From: a virus
Lineage: Duplodnaviria > Heunggongvirae > Uroviricota > Caudoviricetes
Virus record (IMG/VR): IMGVR_UViG_3300035520_000350
Coordinates: 96,466 to 160,465 of that record
Strand: one strand, 5' to 3'
Length of the DNA: 64,000 nucleotides
Shown here: one piece after another, positions 55,214-63,537 of the stretch
Numbering within the stretch: position 1 is the first letter of the stretch
How the letters are laid out: each line of letters opens with the position of its first letter
The notes under the pieces: generated by a model
Seen by the model: only the letters and a program-made list of their open reading frames with translations
Database searches by the model: none
What the model was told of the DNA's origin: nothing
Translations under genes and position numbers: made by a program

Positions 55214-56107
55214 ATGACAAACGAATTACTATTAACGAGGAGCAACACAACACAAAGAATCAGTACCAAGCAGGAAACACTTATGAGGAACATGTTTCTT
55301 ATGAAGATCTTCTGTGTTTTCTGCTTAGTCATCGCTGCATCTGCTTTTATAGCAGGAGGAAATAATGCCATTAAACTTGCTGAGGTTGAAGCCGATTATA
55401 ACAAACTTGAATCTGATAACTTGGCTTTGATCAATCAGTACAACGAACTGTATGCTACATATGATGGACTGTATACTGAATATGTAACAAATGTTGAGTA
55501 TGCCTACTCATGTGAGGATACTATTATCGGACTGAATGAACTGGTAAACGAGTTAGACGAACAGTCTCAGAGTTTAGCAGAGTCCAATGAAGAGTATTAT
55601 CAGACAATTCAACAATATCAACAGAGAGAAGAGTTGTTTGACAAATACGAGTATTGTATTATTAGACAAGATGAAGGTACTCGTACTGATATCACTTATG
55701 ACCAACTAATCAACTTAGAGGAGGTGGCAGAAGAAAAGAATATAGATGTAGATCTTGTTCTTTCAATATGTATGGTTGAGTCAGATGGTGATGAGACTTG
55801 TACTAGTACTACATCAACAGCCAGAGGCTATGGACAATTCTTAAGTGGAACTGGTAAGTTCGTATATGAAGACTTAATGAATGGAGATAGCTATAATCAT
55901 AGTATGGCTCTAGATGGTGACACTAATTTAGAAATGATGGTATACTACTTGGATTATCTTATAGATAAGAATAACGGTAATCTATATGCATCATTAAAGA
56001 ACTATAGAGGTAAGGGTGGGAATGTTCTTACTAACTATATCAAACGAATAGATAGCTACTTAAGTAGCACCGGTAAAAGTGTTGCGTCTATAGATGACGA
56101 ATATTGA
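55214..56107 (+). CDS. Membrane-anchored coiled-coil plus lytic transglycosylase (SLT-like)
   Basis: N-terminal TM helix, coiled coil, then ICMVESDG...TARGYGQF...ASLKNYRG. Confidence 0.75.
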   Translation: MTNELLLTRSNTTQRISTKQETLMRNMFLMKIFCVFCLVIAASAFIAGGNNAIKLAEVEADYNKLESDNLALINQYNELYATYDGLYTEYVTNVEYAYSCEDTIIGLNELVNELDEQSQSLAESNEEYYQTIQQYQQREELFDKYEYCIIRQDEGTRTDITYDQLINLEEVAEEKNIDVDLVLSICMVESDGDETCTSTTSTARGYGQFLSGTGKFVYEDLMNGDSYNHSMALDGDTNLEMMVYYLDYLIDKNNGNLYASLKNYRGKGGNVLTNYIKRIDSYLSSTGKSVASIDDEY

Positions 56108-56304
56108 TAACAGTCCTTAGGACTTTTAATATAAAATATTACAATTGAATATAACTGAGTGGAGTTAGATCCTATTAAAACTGATAGAGGTATAAGCCAG
56201 AGGTGTTACATTGACACCTCTGGTTTTATGATATTACGTACTTTTATTTTTACACAGTCAACCACCTATTAGTAAGATAAATAACAGAGAAGAAGGTATG
56301 TGTT

Positions 56305-57183
56305 ATGTTTGAAAGCTTAATGAAGTTAGACGATGACTTTGGTCAGAAAGAAGTAAAGAAGTCTATACCTAAGTTTATAACAGTAGAACTTAGTATGGGT
56401 ACTCTACTCGCACAGTTGAGTGATATATCATCATTGTCTGATAGTATGATACAGGATATTATCTATAGACAGTATGATGTCATATTAAACTATGATATGT
56501 TTTTAGCAAGTAGCGAGTCTAGAGCAGTAGCTCAAGGATTATTCACTAATGAAAGATTCTTGAGTAATCTTGTAGCATGTGCTAATAACCTTGATTTGAA
56601 TGAGCATCAGGTTATATGCTGTAACAAGTTAGCATACGATTACATTGCTTTGCATTCAGCTACTGATTGTAATCAGGTTATAAGAGACTTGCTTATGGAG
56701 CTTAGCTTTAGGGTTAATCTTAAGACAGTATTAGCATTGTCTTCTATTATAGGCTTAGATAATGCTAAGTACTTAGCTATGCTTAGGAAGTCTTCATTCA
56801 AAGAGAATAAGAACGTAATGAGGGTTAATAGATTCCTCATTAAGTCTGGTTTAGAGTTGATAGAACAGAATATGATAGATATCTATTGTAAGATGTTTGA
56901 TAGTGTTTCAATACTGTTCACTACTACAATGTTTAGCTTACCTGAACCAGATTATACGAAATTAGAGCTCTTTAGATACGAAGAAATGTCAAAAGCGATG
57001 ATAGATCTGATTGACAGTATGCCTATAGCTGAAATGAAGATTGTGTTATCAAATTACGCTAGTTCATACTCTATAGGAGGAGAACCTAAGGTAAGGTTCA
57101 GTATGAAGAATATACATGAATCATATATAAGAATCAATAAAGCTATAGAAGAATTGCTTGAAGACGGGATTATTGTACCATAA
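56305..57183 (+). CDS. Hypothetical protein
   Basis: 292-aa ORF. Confidence 0.7.
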   Translation: MFESLMKLDDDFGQKEVKKSIPKFITVELSMGTLLAQLSDISSLSDSMIQDIIYRQYDVILNYDMFLASSESRAVAQGLFTNERFLSNLVACANNLDLNEHQVICCNKLAYDYIALHSATDCNQVIRDLLMELSFRVNLKTVLALSSIIGLDNAKYLAMLRKSSFKENKNVMRVNRFLIKSGLELIEQNMIDIYCKMFDSVSILFTTTMFSLPEPDYTKLELFRYEEMSKAMIDLIDSMPIAEMKIVLSNYASSYSIGGEPKVRFSMKNIHESYIRINKAIEELLEDGIIVP

Positions 57184-57271: not shown

Positions 57272-58099
57272 ATGATATATGGAAACTTGAATGAAGAAAC
57301 AACGAAGAAAGAGGAGGACAAGAAAGTGAATAAGGAGAGCACAGAGCAGATATTAGAAGACTGTATTAATATCATTAACTCTATTGGTACACAAGAGATC
57401 AGTGATGAAGAAGTAGAGAAAGGTATCTATGATATGAGACATGAGGACTTCAATAAGTTGATTCAGTCTTGTGGATTGTCTCAGTTGATTATAGAGAATC
57501 TTGGTACTACAGAACCAACAACAGAGGAAGTTTATGCTTTACTTGATGAACTTGGCATTACGGTAAGTAGCGATAACCCTTATCATGTAGCAGTACCAGT
57601 GATTTTAAATGAAGCTGGCACAGAAAGTGATATTGAAGCTTTACTGGAATCTGCTAAGAGCGAAGCTAATAAATATCTGAGCAGTATTAAAGTTCAATAT
57701 GAGCATATGCTCAAATATAGATTCCAAAATAATGAAAGACAAGGAGCATCGTGGGCTGATACCATTAGAAGAGAGCAACTTTATAGAGTTGATAAGCTCG
57801 GTATTTCAAATAGAGGAGTTTATAATAGGATAATGGCTGGATTAGATGATGCATATGATGAAGCACGTTCAGAAGCCGCAGCAGAAACTAAAATGAGTAT
57901 AGACAAGTTTCCTAAGGACATTCCTCCTTTATGGGATGACATAAATAATCTGAACGATGATGATGAATTCTTGAGGACATTCCTAATTAGATATGCTAAT
58001 AAGAATTCTTCATCTACTATGGATTATTTGGAGAAATCATACGGAGATAAGGAGGACTGGGATGAGAGATGGGAGGACGAAAGATTTTATGATCTATAA
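57272..58099 (+). CDS. Putative head protein (MIYG start; LNE/LLES motifs)
   Basis: MIYGNLNEE, ILNEA, LLESA. Confidence 0.55.
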   Translation: MIYGNLNEETTKKEEDKKVNKESTEQILEDCINIINSIGTQEISDEEVEKGIYDMRHEDFNKLIQSCGLSQLIIENLGTTEPTTEEVYALLDELGITVSSDNPYHVAVPVILNEAGTESDIEALLESAKSEANKYLSSIKVQYEHMLKYRFQNNERQGASWADTIRREQLYRVDKLGISNRGVYNRIMAGLDDAYDEARSEAAAETKMSIDKFPKDIPPLWDDINNLNDDDEFLRTFLIRYANKNSSSTMDYLEKSYGDKEDWDERWEDERFYDL

Positions 58100-59962: not shown

Positions 59963-60033
59963 ACAATAATGTGAGAGTGGTTTTACAATCACTCTCACTT
60001 TTTATTAATTTTTATAGAAGGGACTTAAGAAAT

Positions 60034-61023
60034 ATGATTAGAATGGAAGACTATGGATACTGTTTAGAGGAGTACTTATATTCCTTAGAGAATGGGGAAG
60101 TTAAAGAGATTAGCTATACCCAGCATGATGATAAAGGAAATGATATACTTACAGCAGGAGTAGAAAAGAGAGATGGTCAATGCTATCAGTCTGTTGTAAA
60201 ATGGTCTCAGAATAGTATTGATAATGAAAGTCATGGATATCTTAACCATGAAGTACCAGAGATGAGACTGTTCTTTGATTATCTTAATGATGAGAATAAG
60301 AAGTTTAAGTTTGAAGATATCACTGTATATAGTTATGAGAATGCTCCTGTACAAAATAGAGACGAGTATTCTATATATCCTATTAAGGGAAGAGATGATA
60401 TTGAGTTAAGCATAGATAGGAATAACGTAGCTGTATGCGATGAGAATAAGGTAATCAAAGTATACGGTAGAAATTCATATGGTAATCCAGACTTTGGTAG
60501 ACCATATGAAGAGATTAGGATATTTGATCCAGATGTGGTAGTACATGAGTTATATTCCTATATGGAAGTAGCTGTAGTAAGTGAAATGAAGAAGCTTAGT
60601 AATAGTTTCTACTATTCTTTAGCTCAATCTCCTATAGATGTCTTACAGAAGAAAGTAACTAAGTATAGAAACTGGGATAGAAACAAAGAGTGGAAGATAG
60701 TATATGATAACGACAATATGGTAGAAACAGTAAGCTCTTTATATAATCTTCTTTCTAGAAGCGAATCTGTTACTAAAGAAACAGATGATAGAAGTGAAGT
60801 GTGTGAGATTAAGGATTCTATATATCCTACTCTACTTACTCCTAATCATAAAGATCTTCTATATCCATTCCAGCAGTTATGGACTCATGATCATATGGAA
60901 AAGGATGGTTATGGTAATATAGTAGAGTTTGAAAGATTAATATACTTCATAGATAAAGATAAGTTAGATGATCTTCATAGGATACTGGATAAAGATGTAG
61001 ATAAGCTAATGATTGGTAATTAG
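60034..61023 (+). CDS. Hypothetical protein
   Basis: Start moved to ATG 60034; about 329 aa. Confidence 0.65.
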   Translation: MIRMEDYGYCLEEYLYSLENGEVKEISYTQHDDKGNDILTAGVEKRDGQCYQSVVKWSQNSIDNESHGYLNHEVPEMRLFFDYLNDENKKFKFEDITVYSYENAPVQNRDEYSIYPIKGRDDIELSIDRNNVAVCDENKVIKVYGRNSYGNPDFGRPYEEIRIFDPDVVVHELYSYMEVAVVSEMKKLSNSFYYSLAQSPIDVLQKKVTKYRNWDRNKEWKIVYDNDNMVETVSSLYNLLSRSESVTKETDDRSEVCEIKDSIYPTLLTPNHKDLLYPFQQLWTHDHMEKDGYGNIVEFERLIYFIDKDKLDDLHRILDKDVDKLMIGN

Positions 61024-61057
61024 TAAAAGTGTAAAATTTGGATCACATATTATAGAA

Positions 61058-61432
61058 GTGTAATGAGAGATAGAAAGCAGCAATTCCAAAAGTGAATAAC
61101 GCTTATGCATAGTTGGTGGCAATACCGGCTCGGAGCGAAGGGTTAGACATGTATGGAATCCCGACGGCAAGGGGCCACAGGTTAGTATATCTCTCGTTGC
61201 ACTATGGACCAGTTAAAGAAAGGGTGGCTGGTAGGAAGTGAGGACACCCCAAGAGAATCCAGTCAAGCTTGCATACTGGTGACTGCCTGAAGTACCTATA
61301 CGGAAAGTATGGAGGAAGGGAATATGAATGCGAGCAAAACAAAAAGCAACGGAACCTTGCTCAGGTTCCGTTGTGAGTAACAAGTAATGCTGAGCAATGA
61401 CCTGAGGGAATTGAAAACTCCCTCCGGGTCAT
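61058..61432 (+). ncRNA. Candidate unassigned structured RNA
   Basis: GC-rich intergenic island with a 15-bp long-range helix (61058-61072/61188-61202), a GNRA hairpin and two strong terminal hairpins. Confidence 0.55.
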
Positions 61433-61444
61433 TCAGTGTGTGTT

Positions 61445-62083
61445 TTATTTTTTGAATTCAATGTATATAGATGCTTCATCATCTAAAGTACTTATCTTAA
61501 GCAATGCTGGAAGAGACGATATCATCTTGTCTTTCATAAGATCCTTCTTTATTTTTTTCACTATCTTACTTAAAGCTACTTTAATTGGTTTAGAACCTTC
61601 GTACACAAGTATAGTAATAGAAGAAGGAGTCTCTTGACTAACATGACTAACTAACTTAGGAACGTTTCTATTCTTATCATATCCATCATAGTTTACATTA
61701 CCATAGATCTTTATAACAGAATCAATATCCTTACGGATTATATTCCTAGTAGAGTTATCTCTGTTATATCTTGTAACAATCTCTTTAGTTCTAGCAGTGA
61801 TGATATTCTTAGCATCAGTAATCTCTACACTAAGATCCTCAACTTCTACACTATAAGATTTGTTCTTCTTTCTTAGTAATCCCTCACTTACTACAGACTC
61901 TTTAAATGGAACAGTACCAAAGTACTTACCACAATCAGTGCATAAAAATACAGGTTCTCCTTTTAAGAATACCTTTACATCTGCTCCACATTTAGTACAC
62001 TTCTTTGGGACTTCATCACCAGAGTCATTTATATATGCAATCTCAGATAAAGCTTCTTTATTGGCTTCGCTTACTCCTGTTGA
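61445..62083 (-). CDS. Start-less 212-codon frame (Zn ribbon CTKC/CTDC), probably a frameshifted extension of 62071..63537
   Basis: Open in the -1 frame from TCTTTTC (62088-62082) to TAA at 61445; no in-frame ATG or GTG until far into the frame. Confidence 0.65.
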   Translation of the reverse strand, partial: STGVSEANKEALSEIAYINDSGDEVPKKCTKCGADVKVFLKGEPVFLCTDCGKYFGTVPFKESVVSEGLLRKKNKSYSVEVEDLSVEITDAKNIITARTKEIVTRYNRDNSTRNIIRKDIDSVIKIYGNVNYDGYDKNRNVPKLVSHVSQETPSSITILVYEGSKPIKVALSKIVKKIKKDLMKDKMISSLPALLKISTLDDEASIYIEFKK

Positions 62084-63537
62084 AAAGACTCTTTAAGTAA
62101 AGCATTACTTGGATCAAGAATCTTAAGAGCTTCTTTAGCATCCTTAAGTATAGCTTTAGCATCAGCGCTAGTAAACATAACATCGTTTTCTGCAGACCGT
62201 TTGGAGATATTTACTATTACTCTTCCTAACTGATTTACTACAAAGTCTTTATCCTTAGTATTGAGATACTTGCCACCTATCTTAACGATAGATAAGATAG
62301 ATCCTTTATACCCCTTTCTTTCTCCAGTAAAGAAGAAGTCTGTGGTAGCAAGATTAGAAGAGAAGAAGAATCTAACCTGAGAACTCTTCTGTTTATCAGT
62401 ATACTCCTTATCTTCTACAATAGTCTTAAGCTTCTTAGCCATAGCAGGACTGTTTCTCAACATATCTTCCTGACTTGGCATAAGATCTTTATTGATCTTC
62501 TTGCCGCCACCAAATATTACCTCTTTCAATGTTTCTTGTAATACTGTTTTCTCTCTATCATAGAAATCTCTATCCAGACATGACTCATATCTGAATCCAT
62601 TGTCTATTACATCTCCTCCTACTCTAAGAATAGCAGTAGAGAACTCTACCATAGATCTTCCACAGCATTTCTCTATAGTCTTCTGGTTATTTACATATGA
62701 TCCACAATATGCATTGGTAACCATTTCAGAGAAAGCCGGAAACAGTTCACAAGCAAAGTGAGTTCCTGAACCATAGAACCAGTTCCACTTATCTACAAAT
62801 ACATCAGTACTCATACCTTTTGTTTTAAAAGTACTTGTAATGCAGTTAAGTAAAGTATCTATATTGATAAGATCTTCATCGTTATAGTAGATTTCCATTG
62901 CGTTGATATCTCTCTTCTCTATACCAGATACTTTTGCAGCTAAGTTCTTTATACTTGTATCTTCTCTATCAAGACCAAGTAAACTTACCTGGAAATACAT
63001 AGCTAAGATATAAGAGATCTTCTTACGATTCTCTGCATAACCATTAAGTCTTAAGTAATCAAAGATATGACTGGCTAATGCTACAAAGCATTCTGTGCCA
63101 CTCTGAATGATAGTAGAGTTATTGGTAAGTCTTATTGGTTCATTAGAGTAAACGATATTAGTCATAGCAGACATAAGATAAGTACAGAATACATCTATCT
63201 TATTGCATACCATGTAACCGTTCTTCTCTGTAATCAAACCAGTACAGTCAATAAACACCTTAACTGCTCTATCTGTCTTTACATCCTTACATGCAAAGAC
63301 TTTAAAAGATGACGGCATGGGTTTACTATAAATACAGAGTACTACATCATCTCTTACAAGCACTCTTGATAATACAGCACTGGTCTGTCTTCGTTTTACA
63401 TCTTCAGTGATTCCTAAGAAAGCTTCAGAACTTTTGTCTATTCTATCTGCTTTCATAACGTATTCAAGGATTCCTCTTTCATAGTTAGGGATTCTTGTAT
63501 ACAGATATGAATTAGCGAATGTCTTAACACCATTCAT
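62071..63537 (-). CDS. Putative virion protein
   Basis: 488 aa; late promoter at 63578; RYES, LQE and LKES motifs. Confidence 0.65.
   Translation of the reverse strand: MNGVKTFANSYLYTRIPNYERGILEYVMKADRIDKSSEAFLGITEDVKRRQTSAVLSRVLVRDDVVLCIYSKPMPSSFKVFACKDVKTDRAVKVFIDCTGLITEKNGYMVCNKIDVFCTYLMSAMTNIVYSNEPIRLTNNSTIIQSGTECFVALASHIFDYLRLNGYAENRKKISYILAMYFQVSLLGLDREDTSIKNLAAKVSGIEKRDINAMEIYYNDEDLINIDTLLNCITSTFKTKGMSTDVFVDKWNWFYGSGTHFACELFPAFSEMVTNAYCGSYVNNQKTIEKCCGRSMVEFSTAILRVGGDVIDNGFRYESCLDRDFYDREKTVLQETLKEVIFGGGKKINKDLMPSQEDMLRNSPAMAKKLKTIVEDKEYTDKQKSSQVRFFFSSNLATTDFFFTGERKGYKGSILSIVKIGGKYLNTKDKDFVVNQLGRVIVNISKRSAENDVMFTSADAKAILKDAKEALKILDPSNALLKESFQQE

What the first reader, a model, noticed from the sequence alone, without database searches (positions are those of the whole stretch)
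61058..61432. Unassigned ~370-nt structured RNA with its own early-type promoter
Seen: a GC-rich intergenic island starts 4 nt after ACATATTATA. GTGTAATGAGAGATA pairs with TATCTCTCGTTGCAC over 15 bp, including G-U wobbles, a pattern typical of RNA-level selection. Inside are ATTCCA/TGGAAT and AGTTGGTG-GCAA-TACCGGCT; then ACCAGT/GCTGGT, AGTCA/TGACT, ATAC/GTAT and two long hairpins (~61347-61373, ~61396-61432) before a T-run. A GGAGG plus 18-codon ORF (MNASKTKSNGTLLRFRCE, ATG 61324) runs into the first hairpin. I could not match it to tRNA, tmRNA, SRP, RNase P, 6S or a riboswitch. Inference: a new phage ncRNA, ribozyme or regulatory leader.
Basis: partly seen in the sequence, partly recalled or inferred. 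Interest (0 to 1): 0.7.

Follow-up and report, generated by a model that had tools for sequence, protein, structure and literature searches.

The report
Two-domain early RNA, jumbo phage
An uncultured giant phage carries an inserted gene for a folded RNA of about 275 bases that matches no catalogued family; its front half looks like a docking handle for the phage's own Ro60-like ring protein and its back half holds two pseudoknots, but expression and function are untested.

Summary
The genome is a 243-kb AR9/PBS1-like phage. The promoter fits the AR9 early consensus, which puts +1 at G61060. The folded core runs 61060-61335. Hairpin 61347-61373 is the terminator of the convergent minus-strand gene, so the 18-codon ORF running through it is probably incidental. 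Nine of ten syntenic relatives have only a 30-50-nt terminator here, so the unit is an insertion. No Rfam, tRNA, tmRNA or 6S match. Only two alleles were found; their 7 differences break no pair (p about 0.01-0.03), and there is no covariation or expression data. New lead: GCAGCAATT follows the closing stem. It resembles the stem+ACAGCAA handle of RNAs beside DUF2828 (Ro60-like) genes, which this genome encodes (chance about 3e-4, post hoc; spacer 4 nt rather than 0-3). Best reading: a Y-RNA-like, handle-plus-pseudoknot early RNA (0.4). The scan has noted handle RNAs and stand-alone early RNAs in other phages; I found no sequence link to them.

The parts
61023..61059 (+). Early (virion-RNAP-type) promoter cassette; core TATTAT at 61048-61053, then 6 nt, then G+1
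   Evidence: AR9 early consensus TATTAT-(6N)-G (PMC5312081). Ranks 6th of 43 genome-wide motif hits, 36 of them intergenic. From -37 to about +17 it aligns with a paralogous promoter at genome 175.1 kb and one in G002.
61060..61200 (+). 5' domain: closing stem P1 (61060-72/61188-200, 13 bp), asymmetric bubble, interrupted rod 61083-61159 capped by a GCAA tetraloop (61119-22), small hairpin 61160-73
   Evidence: Fold z -4.4; helices listed; the allele change at 61199 turns a U-G pair into U-A.
61077..61085 (+). Candidate handle motif GCAGCAATT, 4 nt after the 5' strand of P1
   Evidence: 11.2 bits on a matrix trained on 18 handles from four other phages (training range 10.3-19.5). One of only 2 sites in the genome with that score and a stem of 8 or more Watson-Crick pairs.
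61208..61249 (+). Pseudoknot 1 (H-type): S1 61208-13/61227-32, S2 61222-26/61245-49, purine-rich loops of 8 and 12 nt
   Evidence: Predicted by helix inspection. The allele change at 61233 adds a G-C pair to S1. No covariation.
61259..61335 (+). Pseudoknot 2: S1 61259-63/61275-79, 3-nt loop, 8-bp S2 61267-74/61328-35. Its long loop holds hairpin 61286-61320 with a GGAAA loop and a possible bulged-G motif (AGTA 61291-94 opposite GAA 61315-17)
   Evidence: 3 of 300 shuffles match its pseudoknot energy. S2 appears, at 7-8 bp, in all 8 near-optimal folds shown. The bulged-G motif is inferred from sequence.
61311..61380 (+). SD (61311-15) and 18-codon ORF (61324-61380); probably incidental or a remnant
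   Evidence: SD duplex -10.0 kcal/mol against -11.6 to -13.2 for neighbouring genes. The SD is partly paired, and the second half of the ORF is the minus-strand terminator.
61337..61374 (-). Intrinsic terminator of the convergent virion gene (12-bp hairpin, T-run on the minus strand); the ancestral content of this slot
   Evidence: Relatives carry only a 32-50-nt hairpin here, several also starting with an A-run.
61396..61453 (+). Imperfect hairpin 61396-61433 followed after about 10 nt by a T-run: likely end of the primary transcript (about 385 nt)
   Evidence: Not called by the terminator scan because the T-run is displaced. Inferred.
59971..61023 (+). Flanking 350-aa ORF of unknown function (context only)
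61445..63537 (-). Convergent virion structural gene (488 aa) with an out-of-frame 212-codon extension (context only)
   Evidence: phrog_21032; extension.

Best explanation
A stand-alone, recently inserted early RNA gene of an AR9-like jumbo phage that works by binding protein, most likely as a Y-RNA-like partner of the phage's own Ro60-like (DUF2828) protein. Shown from sequence: early promoter, folded + strand core, insertion, and DUF2828 gene plus handle modules in the same genome. Inferred steps: (1) the injected virion RNA polymerase starts at G61060 minutes after infection and stops near 61445, reading through the opposite gene's terminator; (2) the 3' tail may be trimmed back to pseudoknot 2 (about 61335); (3) P1 buries the 5' end and, with the adjacent GCAGCAATT, forms a divergent handle that docks on the Ro60-like ring; (4) the rod and the two pseudoknots are the cargo, resisting nucleases and tethering or decoying a second factor, as Y RNA tethers PNPase to Rsr. 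The second factor is unknown; a host nuclease or defence protein is the guess.
For: Promoter. 30 of the 32 best early promoters drive an ORF of 40 or more codons within 187 nt (median 46); this one does not. Folding. Seven allelic changes break no pair and two improve pairs; simulated chance 0.008 over the core, 0.025 within the variable block. Insertion. DUF2828 over the Pfam cut-off at genome 66 kb. Handle modules 2-3.5 kb from it and beside homologues in four of five fetched phages. The handle matrix was trained without this genome. It scores the site within the range of the genome's own modules (8.4-17.7 bits), and the chance of such a site within 6 nt of a fixed stem end is 2.6e-4. The 111-nt insert is within the 40-123 nt seen in handles, and one natural GCAGCAA handle exists (L206:8889). 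Y RNA tethering: PMC4201824.
Against: The spacer is 4 purines, against 0-3 nt in all 19 handles examined; with a spacer of 3 or less the best stem is only 4 bp. The first letter is G (1 of 19). The motif was noticed after trying many families, so the p-value is post hoc. The RNA lies about 92 kb from the DUF2828 gene and has no tRNA-like cargo. Handle-DUF2828 binding is itself only inferred from co-location. There are only two alleles and no compensatory double change. The substitution rate in the core (7/276) is no lower than in the flanking genes.
Confidence: 0.4

Rival explanations
1. A stand-alone early ncRNA that binds some other protein and has nothing to do with Ro60. For example, a counter-defence decoy whose tandem pseudoknots mimic a type III antitoxin, or a scaffold for a phage protein.
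For: The same promoter, folding and insertion evidence. Two consecutive H-type pseudoknots about 50 nt apart share the S1 core CCAGT/CTGG. CptI is a 45-nt H-type pseudoknot from two repeats (PMC4627078), TenpI repeats can be non-identical (PMC12283969), and phage RNA mimicry of ToxI is known (PMC3475682).
Against: The units are not sequence repeats. PK1 has an 8-nt first loop (1 nt in CptI), PK2 has a 48-nt loop with an inserted hairpin, and the 141-nt 5' domain is left unexplained. No toxin partner was identified.
Confidence: 0.25
2. An orphaned or peptide-coding translational switch: a 264-nt structured leader whose last pseudoknot hides the SD and start, with the downstream gene lost or reduced to 18 codons.
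For: SD and AUG sit at normal spacing inside PK2. Nearly all other early promoters lead to genes.
Against: The leader would be longer than any other early leader here (maximum 187 nt). Half of the ORF is the ancestral terminator of the opposite gene. There is no riboswitch match.
Confidence: 0.13
3. A non-functional or decaying remnant, or not transcribed as a discrete RNA.
For: It is absent from the slot in all close relatives and was not found elsewhere. The core is not better conserved than the flanks.
Against: Intact consensus promoter, strand-specific folding, 11 G-U pairs, and all 7 changes compatible with the fold.
Confidence: 0.1
4. A ribozyme or intron-derived catalytic RNA.
For: Ornate features: GNRA tetraloop, two pseudoknots, possible bulged-G motif. 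Earlier notes report several group I introns in this genome.
Against: No hit among 4227 Rfam families up to E 10 other than three chance matches. The group I P7 strands would be in the wrong order, and neither pseudoknot has the P3/L3 of HDV-like ribozymes (inspection; own knowledge).
Confidence: 0.06
5. The 5' domain is a 6S-like open-promoter mimic that sequesters host RNA polymerase.
For: Closing stem, asymmetric bubble with a small 3' hairpin, and a 77-nt interrupted arm. The phage has its own polymerases.
Against: RF00013 finds nothing at E 10. The closing stem is 13 bp and the domain 141 nt against a 187-position model. The 3' domain is unexplained.
Confidence: 0.05

Closest known systems
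Bacterial and phage Y RNAs (YrlA, RF02553; Yrn1) with Ro60/Rsr (PMC4201824), and the unpublished stem+ACAGCAA handle RNAs noted by this scan beside DUF2828 genes
   Same: A stem joins the ends of the domain, a CAGCAA motif lies just 3' of its 5' strand, the insert is variable, and a DUF2828 gene is in the genome.
   Different: No tRNA-like domain and no Rfam match. The spacer is 4 nt and the motif starts with G. It has its own promoter 92 kb from the gene and an extra 130-nt pseudoknot domain outside the closing stem.
Dictyostelid Class I RNAs (PMC7919456)
   Same: A terminal stem with a conserved motif next to its 5' strand and a variable remainder.
   Different: Those are eukaryotic, 42-65 nt long with a 6-bp stem.
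ROOL and GOLLD RNAs (PMC5737381)
   Same: Intergenic structured RNAs with pseudoknots and no known function; GOLLD often lies in prophages.
   Different: ROOL averages 581 nt with six multistem junctions; this core is 276 nt with no Rfam match.
Type III antitoxins CptI/TenpI and phage pseudo-ToxI (PMC4627078, PMC12283969, PMC3475682)
   Same: Tandem H-type pseudoknots with purine-rich loops.
   Different: Not repeats, different loop sizes, no toxin gene, and an extra 5' domain.
AR9 early transcription units (PMC5312081) and PeSL cassettes of T4-type phages (PMC2839356)
   Same: Promoter consensus and +1 spacing; an accessory unit bounded by a shared promoter sequence and terminators.
   Different: The payload is a structured RNA, not an ORF. 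Recombination through the promoter is inferred only.

Membership tests
stem+ACAGCAA handle RNA (DUF2828-associated) | Closing stem of at least 6 bp around a variable insert of 40-125 nt | tested here: met
   P1 13 bp, 111 nt between motif and 3' strand
stem+ACAGCAA handle RNA (DUF2828-associated) | ACAGCAA motif, usually followed by TT | tested here: inconclusive
   GCAGCAATT, 11.2 bits, low end of the training range; G variant in 1 of 19 handles
stem+ACAGCAA handle RNA (DUF2828-associated) | Spacer of 0-3 nt between stem and motif | tested here: not met
   4 nt here; 0-3 in all 19 handles
stem+ACAGCAA handle RNA (DUF2828-associated) | DUF2828 gene in the genome or nearby | tested here: inconclusive
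   Present over the cut-off, but about 92 kb away
stem+ACAGCAA handle RNA (DUF2828-associated) | Binds the Ro60-like protein | not testable with these tools
   Needs a pull-down or gel shift
Y RNA (YrlA) | tRNA-like D/T domain; match to RF02553 | tested here: not met
   No hit
tmRNA (one- or two-piece) | tRNA-like domain with T arm and CCA; covariance-model match | tested here: not met
   ARAGORN none; RF00023 none at E 10; no SmpB in the genome
6S RNA | About 190-nt rod with a long closing stem; match to RF00013 | tested here: not met
   closing stem 13 bp
ROOL / GOLLD / OLE / HEARO | Size and covariance-model match | tested here: not met
Type III antitoxin RNA | Tandem repeats upstream of a ToxN/CptN/TenpN gene | tested here: not met
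   The two pseudoknots share only the S1 core; the downstream gene is convergent and structural
Type III antitoxin RNA | Neutralises a cognate toxin | not testable with these tools
   Needs a kill/rescue assay
Retron msr-msd | a1/a2 repeats with branching G, DNA-level msd hairpin, adjacent reverse transcriptase | tested here: not met
   A G follows P1, but the arm is rich in G-U pairs. The only RT is 68 kb away, beside a DGR-like repeat pair.
AR9-type early transcription unit | TATTAT-(6N)-G promoter | tested here: met

The most novel reading that the evidence does not exclude
The phage's Ro60-like protein has a long, chimeric RNA partner encoded far from its gene. A handle module was recruited to an early-promoter cassette and fused to a tandem-pseudoknot cargo. 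This would show that the handle is a portable tag that loads non-tRNA cargo, perhaps a counter-defence decoy, onto a phage Ro60 ring within minutes of infection.
Probability: 0.3. Interest if true: 0.75.

Novelty: new variant of a known kind. Interest (0 to 1): 0.5.

Why it matters
Structured RNAs of lytic jumbo phages are barely charted; dRNA-seq of phiKZ predicted only one sRNA, which was not confirmed (PMC8244752). This unit is small, self-contained and absent from sister phages, so it is easy to test. If the handle reading holds, it gives a direct binding test for the widespread but undescribed DUF2828/handle-RNA system and extends Y-RNA-like particles to pseudoknot cargo. If not, it remains an RNA fold of no known family, supported by only two alleles.

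Tried and rejected
Homologue hunting led nowhere beyond a second allele. Tried: BLAST of phage and plasmid collections; five pattern scans of IMG/VR, which returned only the same contig or chance 15-mers; one metagenome scan that hit a palindrome inside an unrelated ORF; a genome scan whose 13 hits were chance; covariance models over related contigs, AR9, LPJP1, phiR1-37 and BpSp; and 401 Lachnospiraceae-family and 399 same-class genomes. Most relatives are held only as 10-22-kb loci or partial contigs, so absence elsewhere in their genomes is not shown. The models came from two near-identical sequences and are insensitive. My errors: model R2 and the structure were misregistered and were not used; one search had P2-P6 and P8 off by one, corrected. 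Considered and dropped: permuted tmRNA (its GAC-like motif varies between alleles; no T arm or CCA), T-box, SRP, RNase P, group I/II intron, HDV-like, pistol and twister ribozymes, retron. Antisense action on other early leaders is also dropped: the P1 3' strand pairs best in cis, -18.9 against -14.5 kcal/mol at most in trans. The exact AACAGCAA in the other allele's small hairpin loop has no closing stem and scores 2.9 bits, so it was not counted. The supplement of the viral structured-RNA catalogue PMC10690425 is not held, so overlap with it is unchecked.

Full report
Setting. The window lies in a 242,978-nt virus record, 99% complete and 36% GC. The conserved 397-aa gene upstream has its closest named relatives in PBS1, AR9, LPJP1 and phiR1-37, so this is an AR9-like jumbo phage. 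The element sits in a 421-nt gap between a 350-aa ORF (ends 61023, +) and the 3' end of a convergent virion gene (61445, -).

Observation. The stretch folds far better than shuffles (z -5.65). Split up, the 5' domain 61060-61200 gives z -4.4 on + and -1.9 on -; the core 61060-61335 gives -2.9 and -0.4; the 3' part 61336-61445 gives about -6 on both strands. The core is therefore an RNA-level, + strand structure (11 of 77 pairs G-U), while the 3' part behaves like terminator hairpins. None of 694 genome windows of 141 nt, including 34 GC-matched ones, folds as well as the 5' domain. The 130-nt pseudoknot region alone is not significant as a nested fold (z -1.1), as expected if pseudoknots carry it.

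Promoter. AR9 early promoters read TATTAT-(6N)-G+1 (PMC5312081). A matrix built on this genome finds 43 sites, 36 intergenic, with this one ranked sixth. This places +1 at G61060. Of the 32 best sites, 30 lead to an ORF of at least 40 codons within 187 nt (median 46); this one does not. The cassette from the upstream stop codon to about +17 aligns with a promoter at genome 175.1 kb and one in a sister phage. The 5' strand of P1 is thus the phage's ordinary leader sequence, and the 3' strand has come to pair with it.

Anatomy. The 5' domain is closed by P1 (13 bp). It holds a 10-nt unpaired strand, an interrupted rod ending in a GCAA tetraloop, and a small hairpin. Pseudoknot 1 follows (61208-61249; 6 + 5 bp). 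Pseudoknot 2 (61259-61335; 5 + 8 bp, 3-nt first loop) has a long loop containing a hairpin with a possible bulged-G motif. Three of 300 shuffles equal the pseudoknot score. Hairpin 61347-61373 is followed by T's on the minus strand only. Nine of ten relatives have nothing in this slot but a 32-50-nt hairpin, including L015 (88% identical in the 397-aa protein); the tenth (L009) has 301 nt unrelated to this RNA. That hairpin is therefore the ancestral terminator, and the RNA gene was inserted in front of it. The 18-codon ORF runs through this terminator, which makes it more likely incidental.

Variation. Only two alleles were found, in six contigs besides the window's own record. The seven differences all fall in 61163-61233. 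Five are in unpaired positions, one turns U-G into U-A in P1, and one adds a G-C pair to pseudoknot 1. Random placement of the same changes breaks no pair in 0.8% (core) or 2.5% (block) of trials. This is modest support. There is no two-sided change, and the substitution rate is not lower than in the flanking genes.

Known families. Rfam gives nothing at gathering level and three chance matches up to E 10. Single-family searches for 6S and tmRNA are empty with working controls, and ARAGORN finds no tmRNA. The only reverse transcriptase belongs with a DGR-like repeat pair 68 kb away.

The handle lead. Earlier notes described stem+ACAGCAA modules beside Ro60-like genes, including in this genome, and I tested the link. 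The genome encodes DUF2828 over the cut-off, with an array of such modules 2-3.5 kb away. Homologues are annotated as Ro-like RNA-binding proteins in mycobacteriophages. In five other fetched phages, 19 sites with a closing stem were found beside the gene in four: 17 ACAGCAA, 1 GCAGCAA and 1 TCAGCAA (probably chance), mostly followed by TT, with spacers of 0-3 nt. A matrix from 18 of them, none from this genome, recovers the array modules (8.4-17.7 bits) and scores 61077 at 11.2 bits. Only this site and one array module combine that score with a stem of 8 or more Watson-Crick pairs, and the chance of such a site within 6 nt of a given stem end is 2.6e-4. Against this, the spacer is 4 purines, the first letter is G, the gene is 92 kb away, and I arrived at the motif after trying many families. 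One defining feature is not met, so I do not file it as a member. A hybrid origin, in which the promoter leader replaced the 5' strand and spacer of a handle module, would explain the deviations but is inference.

Mechanism. The most likely reading is an early, protein-binding RNA: the handle docks on the phage's Ro60-like ring, and the rod and pseudoknots are a nuclease-resistant cargo that tethers or decoys another factor, by analogy with Y RNA, Rsr and PNPase (PMC4201824). I put this at 0.4. A protein decoy unrelated to Ro60 gets 0.25, an orphan translational switch 0.13, an inert remnant 0.10, a ribozyme 0.06 and a 6S mimic 0.05. That it is a real structured RNA gene of some kind I put near 0.85.

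Verdict. A real, accessory, uncatalogued phage RNA with one concrete and testable lead, limited by two alleles and no expression data. Interest 0.5.

Noticed in passing
window 61445-62090 (-): The 488-aa virion gene ends shortly after TCTTTTC, and another frame stays open for 212 codons with a four-cysteine zinc ribbon. The same TCTTTTC junction and split occur in L002, L004 and L196; L008 and L009 have the homologous tail fused in frame, and L015 has it as a separate 585-aa ORF. Candidate programmed -1 frameshift.
   Followed up: partly
window 56107-56305 and whole genome: The close relatives (L002, L004, L005, L006, L008, L009, L015, L019, L023, L026) have a tubulin (PhuZ-like) gene between the SLT-type gene and the 292-aa gene. 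It is missing here, and tblastn finds no tubulin anywhere in the 99%-complete genome; the second strain (L187) also lacks it at this site.
   Followed up: partly
genome G000 225418-226026, 226668-226794, 228804-228930 (outside the window): A 554-aa reverse transcriptase with a 127-nt repeat pair at 79.5% identity: a diversity-generating retroelement.
   Followed up: partly
genome G000 181413 (outside the window): A second strong early promoter with no SD-led ORF of 40 codons within 600 nt by my criteria; possibly another RNA unit or a missed gene.
   Followed up: no
L009:12428-12728: The same slot holds a different 301-nt insert with several hairpins in this relative.
   Followed up: no
L009:8200-8480: Tandem repeats of about 48 nt, nearly free of C on one strand, in an intergenic gap.
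   Followed up: no
L206:8889 (Salmonella phage ph2-2): A natural handle variant reading GCAGCAA among ACAGCAA handles downstream of the DUF2828 gene.
   Followed up: yes
window 57272-58099: This 275-aa ORF carries a DUF29 hit in the source annotation; the second strain has an extra 200-210-aa gene in this variable slot.
   Followed up: no
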